Assembly: GCA_951406725.2 (NCBI GenBank) | Contig: OX597819.1 | Span: 47,988,001 to 48,052,000, forward strand | Length of the DNA stretch: 64,000 nucleotides | DNA from: Octopus vulgaris | Taxonomy: Eukaryota | Reading direction: 5' to 3' | Shown here: in pieces, positions 41,798 to 42,831 of the stretch | How the letters are laid out: the number at the start of each line of letters is the position of its first letter | Position numbering within the stretch: position 1 is the first letter of the stretch | Notes under the pieces: model-generated | Databases searched by the model: none | Seen by the model: only the letters and a program-made list of their open reading frames with translations | Told to the model about the DNA's origin: nothing | Made by a program: the position numbers and the translations under genes

Positions 41798-42617
41798 ATA
41801 TATATGCACATGTGTGTGTATATTTGTGTCTTCTTGTCTTGACATCTTACAATAGTTGAAAACGGGTGTCAGTGTCATGCAGAAATATTGCTTTGCTTGG
41901 TAACAGATGTGGGTTCACGACAGGAAAGAAAATCTGCCTCAATAACTCTGTCTGATCCATGCAAGCAGTGAAAAGTGGATGTTAATATGATGATGATGCT
42001 TCTAAGATTTTTTCCTTGATGATATATTGTTGTTAGGAACTGGTTGCAAGGATCTGGTCTTGTACAGTGATTATAGGGCCCTCTGTTTCTGCTTTTTTAG
42101 TTCCATGCGCTTTAGCTTCTAGGTGTGTCTTCATTTGGTCCACATCGTGCCTCTTGCATCCTTTTTAGGTACTTACCATGAATTAATTTGTCTTCCCAAG
42201 TTTTCTCTAGTTGCTGATGGCCATGGTATTTTGCTAAGCATCCAGTACATTCTCTTTAAAGGGGTTGGCTTTAGGAAGGGTATCCAGCTGCGGAAACCAC
42301 GTTGAAGCTGACATTAGAGATTGGCACTGTTCTCTGGCTTTCCAGTCCAGCCCATGCCAGCCTGGAAAACAGATGCTGAATGGTGGTGGCAATGACAATA
42401 ATGATAATGATGATGATCCACTTGTTTGACATTGATGGTAGTCGCCTTGTGTCCCGTTGAGTGTATTCTTAGGCTTTCACAATATAACAATATAGGTGCT
42501 GGAGTGACCGTGTGATAAGAAGCTTTCTTCCCAACTACATGATTCCAGGTTCAGTCCCACTGTGTGGCACCTTGGGCAAGTGTCTTGTAATAATAATAAT
42601 ATTAAAAATATTTCAAA

Positions 42618-42669
42618 ATGGCTTAAGCTTTGAGACAAGCATATGACTACTGGCAGGATCAACCAGCTA
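42618..42669 (-). pseudogene. 5'-terminal fragment of 18S rRNA (about 52 nt)
   Basis: The reverse complement reads TAGCTGGTTGATCCTGCCAGTAGTCATATGCTTGTCTCAAAGCTTAAGCCAT. This is the conserved 18S 5' end (TACCTGGTTGATCCTGCCAGTAGTCATATGCTTGTCTCAAAGATTAAGCCAT) with 2 differences. Confidence 0.93.
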
Positions 42670-42734
42670 TCATTGCGATTCAGCAGTCGTACGCTGTTCC
42701 GCTGCTGCCGTTACTCGGTTTCCATTTCGATTCA
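42670..42734 (-). other. Probable 5' external transcribed spacer adjoining the 18S fragment
   Basis: GC/CpG-rich non-SINE segment directly upstream (on the minus strand) of the 18S start. ETS identity is inferred from position only. Confidence 0.55.
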
Positions 42735-42831
42735 TTGTGAGTGGATTCGATTCACAGAAACTGAAAGAAGTTTGTTATATTACATAAAATAAAATAAAAT
42801 AATTAAAAATCAATATGATGATCCTAATTAA

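What the first reader, a model, noticed from the sequence alone, without database searches (positions are those of the whole stretch)
42587..42754. Antisense 5'ETS-18S rRNA junction fragment captured inside a SINE, about 160 bp from the 5S copy
Seen in sequence: the SINE head stops at 42586, then comes AT-rich filler, the first 52 nt of 18S in minus orientation and about 65 nt of GC-rich upstream sequence. The SINE resumes at TTGTGAGTGGA, with roughly 25-30 nt of SINE missing. A 9-mer TTCGATTCA occurs twice (42726-42734 and 42746-42754) around the rejoin point. Inference: if the upstream piece is ETS, the donor was pre-rRNA or rDNA rather than mature 18S, captured in break repair or by RT template switching. 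Pieces of a Pol I and a Pol III rRNA in one SINE is unexpected by chance. On the EPC sense strand the insert would be antisense to the 18S 5' processing junction.
Basis: partly seen in the sequence, partly recalled or inferred. Interest (0 to 1): 0.7.

Follow-up and report, generated by a model that had tools for sequence, protein, structure and literature searches.

The report
Scrambled rRNA scraps inside a SINE
Three scraps of ribosomal RNA genes (the start of 18S, an oppositely oriented piece of an internal spacer, and a whole 5S copy) sit inside one broken mobile repeat in an intron, likely pasted in when a borrowed reverse transcriptase hopped between RNAs at a DNA break, a known and ordinary kind of genomic scar.

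Summary
The composite is real, but the GC-rich piece is mostly not 5' ETS. Only 12 nt (42670-42681) are ETS. The other ~56 nt (42679-42736) are ITS1, on the strand opposite to the 18S piece and joined to it through 3 shared bases. Both spacers match dispersed old-type rDNA fragments, not the current array. The host SINE lacks 28 nt and shows no target duplication. The nearby 5S is a full-length copy fused to a retroposon tail, with a 64-nt inverted copy of local DNA at its 5' end. Such 5S fusions are common here: in 30 dispersed copies taken in coordinate order, 10 precede this tail and 15 (by eye) a SINE head. The best reading is two-ended, reverse-transcriptase-driven capture of pre-rRNA at a break; a DNA-templated repair patch and two separate events stay open. 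The insert lies in an Enhancer-of-polycomb intron; no function is indicated. This scan already found similar 5S, 5.8S, 28S and ETS-18S chimeras on other DNA of this genome. Known kind, low interest.

The parts
42482..42586 (+). 5' part (tRNA-like head; label recalled) of the host SINE, broken off at 42586
   Evidence: 83% to copies at 41431-41541 and 22139-22238
42587..42617 (-). 31-nt AT-rich filler; on the minus strand it reads TTTGAAA plus a degenerate (ATT)7, like the extreme 3' end of an (ATT)n-tailed repeat; it replaces 28 nt of SINE
   Evidence: two such tails among fetched loci; no specific source within 30 kb either side; 28-nt spacer in 27 of 30 intact SINEs. Tail identity is an inference from about 7 specific bases
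42618..42669 (-). 18S rRNA nt 1-52 of the host's own type, one substitution
42670..42681 (-). last 12 nt of an old-type 5' ETS
   Evidence: identical to the 12 nt before 18S in L083/L181, related ends in L082, L078, L025, L186; the current array shares only the last 3 nt
42679..42736 (+). old-type ITS1 piece, ending about 87 nt before 5.8S, opposite in orientation to the 18S piece; 3-nt overlap with the ETS piece, 2-nt overlap with the SINE
   Evidence: aligns to 6 dispersed copies (scores 59-89, shuffle maxima 33-36); L122 holds it between the 18S 3' end and 5.8S
42735..42770 (+). in-register remnant of the host SINE
42746..42754 (+). second copy of the last 9 nt of the ITS1 piece, overwriting 9 nt of SINE at equal length
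   Evidence: 4 of 9 positions differ from the common SINE form (30 of 38 copies); 0 of 38 copies within 3 mismatches
42771..42834 (-). 64-nt inverted copy of local DNA (arm 1), sharing 3 nt with the 5S start
   Evidence: 94% complementary to 43552-43615; a 26-nt core occurs only at these two places in the genome
42832..42956 (+). full-length 5S rRNA copy plus a few trailer bases
   Evidence: RF00001, 103.7 bits; 5 differences from one array copy, 3 of them at sites that vary among copies
42955..43023 (+). retroposon 3' tail (hairpin plus purine-rich repeats) fused to the 5S
   Evidence: 88% to the host SINE's own tail at 43183-43251; same fusion at 29 other fetched loci
43023..43251 (+). body and tail of the host SINE
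   Evidence: 85-86% to copies at 22319-22533 and 41601-41798
43552..43615 (+). arm 2, the likely template of arm 1
   Evidence: direction of copying inferred from arm 2 being continuous with unique flanks
26428..26580 (+). EPC-like first coding exon (approximate ends); places the composite in an intron on the gene's sense strand
   Evidence: recalled motifs; PF06752 hit downstream on the same strand

Best explanation
This is a scar of rRNA-gene pieces in a broken SINE, likely written in one event by a LINE reverse transcriptase that extended both ends of a DNA break on whatever RNA was near. Shown: the order, orientation and source of every piece, the 28-nt loss, the 2-3 nt overlaps and the lack of a target duplication. 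Inferred: the left end was primed on an (ATT)n-tailed RNA, jumped to pre-rRNA at 18S nt 52 and copied to 12 nt into the ETS. Inferred: the right end copied a retroposon tail, jumped to the 3' end of 5S RNA, then to nearby DNA (the inverted arm), then along the host SINE, started on an ITS1 RNA end for 9 nt, fell back to the SINE, and restarted on the same ITS1 end for 56 nt. Inferred: the two new strands were joined at 3 shared bases. The product is most likely neutral intronic debris.
For: Polarity: read outward-in from each flank, every rRNA piece is the antisense copy of its RNA, and the 5' ends of the 18S/ETS and ITS1 pieces meet in the middle, the twin-priming geometry described for RNA chimeras (sequence). 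The two donors lie about 3.6 kb apart in the unit, so they are not one contiguous DNA piece. The genome shows frequent RNA jumping: of 30 dispersed 5S copies taken in coordinate order, 10 are followed by the tail and 15 (by eye) by a SINE 5' head, with varying trailers that match the 5S gene trailers up to the T-run. Six of 35 loci with an 18S 5' end are followed by SINE sequence in the same sense (by eye). Both ITS1 copies in the window stop at the same base, and the first has no pairing with the strand it extends, as expected for a jump onto a template end (sequence). No 45S piece was found near 59 other 5S copies and no 5S near 43 other 18S/ITS1 loci, which favours a link over chance.
Against: No target-site duplication at either insert, whereas the published twin-priming and template-switch chimeras mostly have one. 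Deletion, microhomology and filler fit class 2 break-repair insertions equally well, and yeast captures rDNA and inverted two-piece inserts from DNA. Polarity alone is a one-in-two coincidence for the 18S/ITS1 pair, and L136 holds 18S and old ITS1 in the opposite (3'-to-3') geometry. The filler's identity as a tail rests on about 7 specific bases. The SINE remnant between the two inserts is in register, as two separate insertions would leave it. The partner LINE was not identified.
Confidence: 0.45

Rival explanations
1. The 18S/ETS and ITS1 pieces were copied or captured from rDNA (chromosomal or extrachromosomal DNA) during end-joining repair of a break; only the 5S-tail part is retro-derived.
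For: 28-nt loss, 2-3 nt overlaps, AT filler, no duplication are the class 2 signature (PMC5110952); rDNA inserts and inverted two-piece inserts at breaks are shown in yeast (PMC11372161, PMC11724301); local DNA was certainly used as template nearby (inverted arm, 9-mer); several long dispersed rDNA copies here include non-transcribed spacer (L003, L007, L009).
Against: Both pieces come from the transcribed part and have the polarity RNA templates demand; short 18S 5' pieces and 5S copies elsewhere are fused in sense to retroposon RNA ends.
Confidence: 0.27
2. Two independent events hit the same SINE 36 nt apart: an ordinary 5S-tail retro-insertion with an inverted 5' junction, and a separate RT-made 18S/ETS-ITS1 patch.
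For: Each part has its own recurrent class in this genome; the SINE remnant is in register; with generous copy numbers 0.5-2.8 such neighbours are expected per genome; an inverted repeat next door could promote a second break (inference).
Against: 0 of 59 and 0 of 43 other loci show such a neighbour; with conservative numbers only 0.004-0.05 are expected; both parts have similar low divergence from their sources (1 of 52; about 2 private of 119).
Confidence: 0.2
3. One reading: a single continuous antisense 5'ETS-18S junction fragment.
For: 12 nt of ETS are present.
Against: No ETS match in the current unit (30 of 200 shuffles reach the score); the piece aligns to ITS1 copies anchored between 18S and 5.8S; old-type ETS copies with longer upstream sequence (L082, L083) differ from the window beyond nt -12.
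Confidence: 0.03
4. Assembly chimera.
For: The left junction and the arm|5S junction were not bridged by listed contigs; in two runs the contig leaves arm 1 into the reverse of 43218-43569.
Against: Contigs of two studies hold 42643-42769 with no difference; the spacers are old-type and cannot come from the current array; the host SINE is colinear across the whole structure.
Confidence: 0.03
5. A functional intronic antisense RNA acting on pre-rRNA processing.
For: On the EPC sense strand 52 nt are complementary to the 18S 5' end.
Against: The ETS part matches the current rDNA over only 3 nt; no Rfam family other than 5S reaches a meaningful score; structure is that of a one-off scar.
Confidence: 0.02

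Closest known systems
Twin-priming RNA chimeras (U5/L1, U5/SVA, tRNA-half/L1, antisense 5S/L1; PMC4476161 and PMC11838501, passages read)
   Same: Two RNA-derived segments in opposite orientation whose 5' ends meet, short overlaps at junctions, 3'-truncated RNA pieces.
   Different: Both segments here come from 45S pre-rRNA, include spacer sequence, and there is a 28-nt loss instead of a target duplication; invertebrate host; the main text of PMC11838501 has no occurrence of '18S'.
Template-switch small-RNA/retroposon chimeras (U6/L1 type; PMC4476161, PMC11838501, passages read)
   Same: Full-length small RNA in sense at the 5' side of a retroposon 3' end, junction differing from copy to copy (the 5S part).
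   Different: In the mammalian set 5S is mostly truncated and antisense; here it is full length and sense, and fuses to SINE heads as often as to tails; this copy has an inverted local-DNA arm and no duplication.
Class 2 templated sequence insertions (Onozawa and Aplan, PMC5110952, passages read) and complex inserts at yeast breaks (PMC11372161, PMC11724301, passages read)
   Same: No duplication, microdeletion, microhomology, filler, distant donor, several pieces, local inverted copy.
   Different: The passages of PMC5110952 name no rRNA donors (0 hits for rRNA, ribosomal); here one side ends in a retroposon tail, which points to target-primed reverse transcription.
Tailless retropseudogenes (PMC5322556, passages read)
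   Same: 3'-truncated copies of abundant RNAs with recurring end points, including rare 18S and 28S cases.
   Different: Those have target duplications and are L1-dependent in therians; nucleolar precursors were almost absent there, whereas ETS and ITS1 pieces recur here.
5S-derived SINEs (SINE3 and others; listed in PMC10946416, passages read)
   Same: 5S head in front of a retroposon tail, many dispersed copies.
   Different: No shared junction or single partner among copies, so these look like independent fusions, not a family amplified from a master.

Membership tests
Continuous 5'ETS-18S rDNA fragment (orphon) | upstream sequence collinear with 5' ETS | tested here: not met
   only 12 of 65 nt are ETS; the rest is inverted ITS1
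Twin-priming chimera | two RNA-derived segments in opposite orientation, 5' ends meeting | tested here: met
   18S/ETS on minus, ITS1 on plus
Twin-priming chimera | short complementarity at junctions | tested here: met
   3 nt ETS|ITS1, 2 nt ITS1|SINE
Twin-priming chimera | flanking target-site duplication | tested here: not met
   longest shared word 4 nt; 28 nt lost instead
Twin-priming chimera | retroelement 3' end on one side | tested here: inconclusive
   filler resembles an (ATT)n tail over about 7 specific bases; a clear tail lies only at the far 5S end
Twin-priming chimera | endonuclease consensus at the site | not tested
   partner LINE not identified
Class 2 templated sequence insertion | no duplication, microdeletion, microhomology | tested here: met
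Class 2 templated sequence insertion | no tail, non-templated filler | tested here: inconclusive
   filler may be a tail; no local source found
Template-switch small-RNA/retroposon chimera (5S part) | full-length small RNA in sense 5' of a retroposon 3' end | tested here: met
Template-switch small-RNA/retroposon chimera (5S part) | junction differs between copies | tested here: met
   varied trailers and partners in L036-L065 and L090-L119
Template-switch small-RNA/retroposon chimera (5S part) | target-site duplication around the whole | tested here: not met
   none of 6 nt or more from the arm's outer end; one 6-nt A-rich word from the 5S end
SINE3 (5S-derived SINE family) | copies share one junction and body from a master element | tested here: not met
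   at least three tail types and several SINE heads by eye; small sub-families not excluded
Functional antisense RNA | stable stranded transcript and conservation | not testable with these tools
   all listed runs were contigs; no raw stranded reads

The most novel reading that the evidence does not exclude
One insertion records a reverse transcriptase switching among about seven templates (two retroposon tails, 5S RNA, local DNA, the host SINE, ITS1 RNA twice, ETS-18S RNA), and the end it caught twice is a real pre-rRNA cleavage site about 87 nt upstream of 5.8S. If so, the dispersed ETS, 18S and ITS1 scraps of this genome, whose ends recur (5 of 11 ITS1 copies at this T-tract; 13 of 35 18S 5' copies ending at nt 52-75), are a fossil map of pre-rRNA processing and of extinct rDNA types in a lineage where this has not been mapped in the papers searched.
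Probability: 0.15. Interest if true: 0.5.

Novelty: new member of a known kind. Interest (0 to 1): 0.2.

Why it matters
As a single locus it matters little: it is debris in an intron. It is a clear worked example of how promiscuous template jumping is in this genome, where most dispersed 5S copies sit in front of SINE sequence, which is the raw material from which 5S-headed SINEs arise. The spacer scraps also preserve rDNA variants that concerted evolution has removed from the assembled array, and their recurring ends could, if confirmed by RNA end mapping, locate pre-rRNA cleavage sites.

Tried and rejected
Foreign (parasite) origin: rejected; the 18S piece and 5S match this genome's own arrays. 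ETS in the current unit: no match. Piece against current ITS1: score 32, within or at the edge of shuffles (5 of 200; shuffle maximum 35); the assignment rests on old-type copies. A nearby rDNA donor: within 30 kb each side only a 38-nt 18S piece at window coordinate 80135. Local source of the filler: only generic (TAA)n tracts. Target duplications: none. Presence in related organisms: runs X3, X4 and X9 (organisms B, C, E) gave no or next to no cover of 42681-42702, although X3 and X4 cover the unique flanks at 98-99%. Contig ends in X4 (43553, 43581) and X3 (43552, 43581) fall at the edges of the 31-mer shared by the two arms, as expected if arm 1 exists there. Taken at face value this would favour two events with the 18S/ITS1 patch the younger, against my best reading; but contigs show presence only, short paths next to high-copy rDNA can be pruned, heterozygosity could explain the X3 ends, and old-type spacers argue for an old insert because X3 and X4 already show the current ETS end. 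Left unresolved. Pfam scan of 40 of the 313 window ORFs found no EPC domain and the PF10513 search did not hit this window; the gene was placed. Paper searches listed no paper on rRNA-retroposon chimeras or rDNA spacer variants in octopus; the library lacks most subscription papers, and no supplements were opened, which may list 18S or spacer chimeras.

Full report
Setting. The window is G000:C6:47988001-48052000 of a 2.8-Gb animal assembly; earlier scan notes call the organism an octopus, which fits my recall of the SINE. An EPC-like first coding exon lies near 26428-26580 on the + strand (found with recalled motifs) and a PF06752 match lies 68.7 kb past the window end on the same strand, so the locus is intronic.

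Observation. The host SINE head runs 42482-42586, resumes at 42735 and continues 43023-43251. The gap equals 28 nt in 27 of 30 intact copies. 42618-42669 is 18S nt 1-52, antisense, with one difference from the genome's own tandem unit of 18,360 nt on C20. Rfam finds 5S at 42832-42950 and nothing else at gathering score in the window. Contigs of runs X1 and X2 (two studies) carry 42643-42769 without a difference.

The GC-rich piece. Against the current unit only the 18S piece plus 3 nt align. A genome search with 42666-42734 gave 4 other places of 5, none in the array. Two of these (L069, L070) align to current ITS1, L069 running into 5.8S. A wider search gave 23 matches; L122 holds 18S 3' end, this ITS1 type and 5.8S in order. 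The window piece 42679-42736 scores 59-89 against 6 such copies (maxima of 300 shuffles 33-36) and only 32 against current ITS1. It ends 87 nt before 5.8S in L122 and lies on the + strand, opposite to the 18S piece. The 12 nt next to 18S are identical to the ETS end in L083 and related to those of L082, L078, L025 and L186, a type absent from the array. The two pieces overlap by 3 nt; ITS1 and SINE by 2 nt. 'Old-type' is my label for spacer forms seen only in decayed dispersed copies; a second, unassembled rDNA class is not excluded.

The 9-mer. The second copy replaces 9 SINE bases at equal length; 30 of 38 SINE copies have the common form, 4 mismatches away, and none is closer. It is therefore templated. 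Both copies stop at the same ITS1 base.

The 5S side. The 5S is followed by a short trailer and a retroposon tail. All 30 loci fetched with this query show a 5S-tail fusion with varying junctions (chosen by the query, 40 scored of 3106 candidates). A 22-nt 5S pattern has 440 exact matches, including an array on C4. Of the first 30 in coordinate order, 10 precede this tail (pattern match), 15 a SINE 5' head, 4 other repeat ends or bodies and 1 a microsatellite (the last three groups by eye). Trailers match those of array genes up to the T-run, which points to RNA templates. The 64 nt before the 5S are an inverted copy of 43552-43615, sharing 3 nt with the 5S start; their 26-nt core occurs only at these two places. 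No target duplication was found.

Base rates. Of 35 loci with an 18S 5' end outside the eight tandem units, 18 stop by nt 105 and 13 at nt 52-75 (the 52-nt query under-samples shorter ends); six are followed by SINE sequence in sense and others sit inside SINEs (by eye). Multi-piece rDNA composites recur (L005, L019, L128, L136). No 45S piece was found in 59 other 5S loci and no 5S in 43 other 18S/ITS1 loci. Expected chance neighbours within 250 bp span 0.004-2.8 for assumed copy numbers.

Mechanism. Reading inward from each flank, every rRNA piece is the antisense copy of its RNA, which is what reverse transcription from both ends of a break gives. Left strand: filler, 18S 52 to 1, ETS. Right strand: tail, 5S, inverted local DNA, host SINE, 9 nt of ITS1, SINE again, 56 nt of ITS1. 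They join at 3 shared bases. I give this one-event RT model 0.45. A DNA-templated patch (0.27) explains the deletion and missing duplication as well, and L136 shows the opposite geometry. Two separate events (0.2) fit the in-register remnant; the contig data from related organisms that might decide this are inconclusive (see Tried and rejected).

Comparison. Passages read: PMC4476161 (twin priming and template switching with snRNAs), PMC11838501 (LINE-1 chimeras with 5S, 28S, tRNA), PMC5322556 (tailless retropseudogenes), PMC5110952 (class 2 insertions), PMC10946416 (rDNA and TEs), PMC11372161 and PMC11724301 (yeast break inserts). The locus works like these chimeras but fails their duplication criterion, and meets the class 2 junction criteria. 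It is not a SINE3 family member and not a continuous ETS-18S orphon. The scan has noted like cases on other DNA of this genome; these are leads, not support.

Verdict. Real, partly misread, ordinary in kind. Interest 0.2; new member of a known kind. The boldest open reading, that recurring ends are fossils of pre-rRNA processing, has probability about 0.15.

Noticed in passing
L090-L119 (G000 C1-C2): 29 of 30 dispersed 5S copies taken in coordinate order sit directly in front of SINE heads, tails or bodies (partly by eye), most of them full length with varied 3' trailers: template jumping onto 5S RNA seems routine in this genome.
   Followed up: partly
L004, L010, L025, L074-L076, L078-L080, L082, L083: Short 18S 5' fragments end in a narrow range (nt 52-75 in 13 of 35 loci), many with 0-35 nt of ETS; could mark a recurrent RNA end or priming site.
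   Followed up: partly
L032, L033, L123, L125 and window 42736: 5 of 11 ITS1 copies that reach the T-tract about 87 nt before 5.8S stop at or next to it.
   Followed up: partly
L082, L083, L005, L029, L120-L129, L122: Several spacer types unlike the current C20 array survive in dispersed copies; ITS1 is about 486 nt in L122 against 1198 nt (three internal repeats) in the array.
   Followed up: partly
window 42771-43615: In runs X1 and X2 one contig passes from 42769 through the arm into the reverse of 43218-43569: either an inversion between the arms in those animals or graph pruning at the 31-mer shared by the arms.
   Followed up: no
L136:1316-1640: A second 18S plus old-type ITS1 composite in opposite orientation between two SINEs, with 3' ends meeting; the 18S piece is head to head with a SINE.
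   Followed up: partly
L066-L067 (G000:C20) and L068 (G000:C4:35.21 Mb): 45S unit of 18,360 nt with an unusually long 18S (2643 nt by Rfam); 5S array with units in both orientations and TATA-like upstream flanks.
   Followed up: no
window 11946-12587 (-): Decayed mariner-type transposase piece (PF01359, below cut-off).
   Followed up: no
G000:C6, window coordinate 80135-80172 (L088): Another 38-nt 18S fragment in the same EPC gene region.
   Followed up: no
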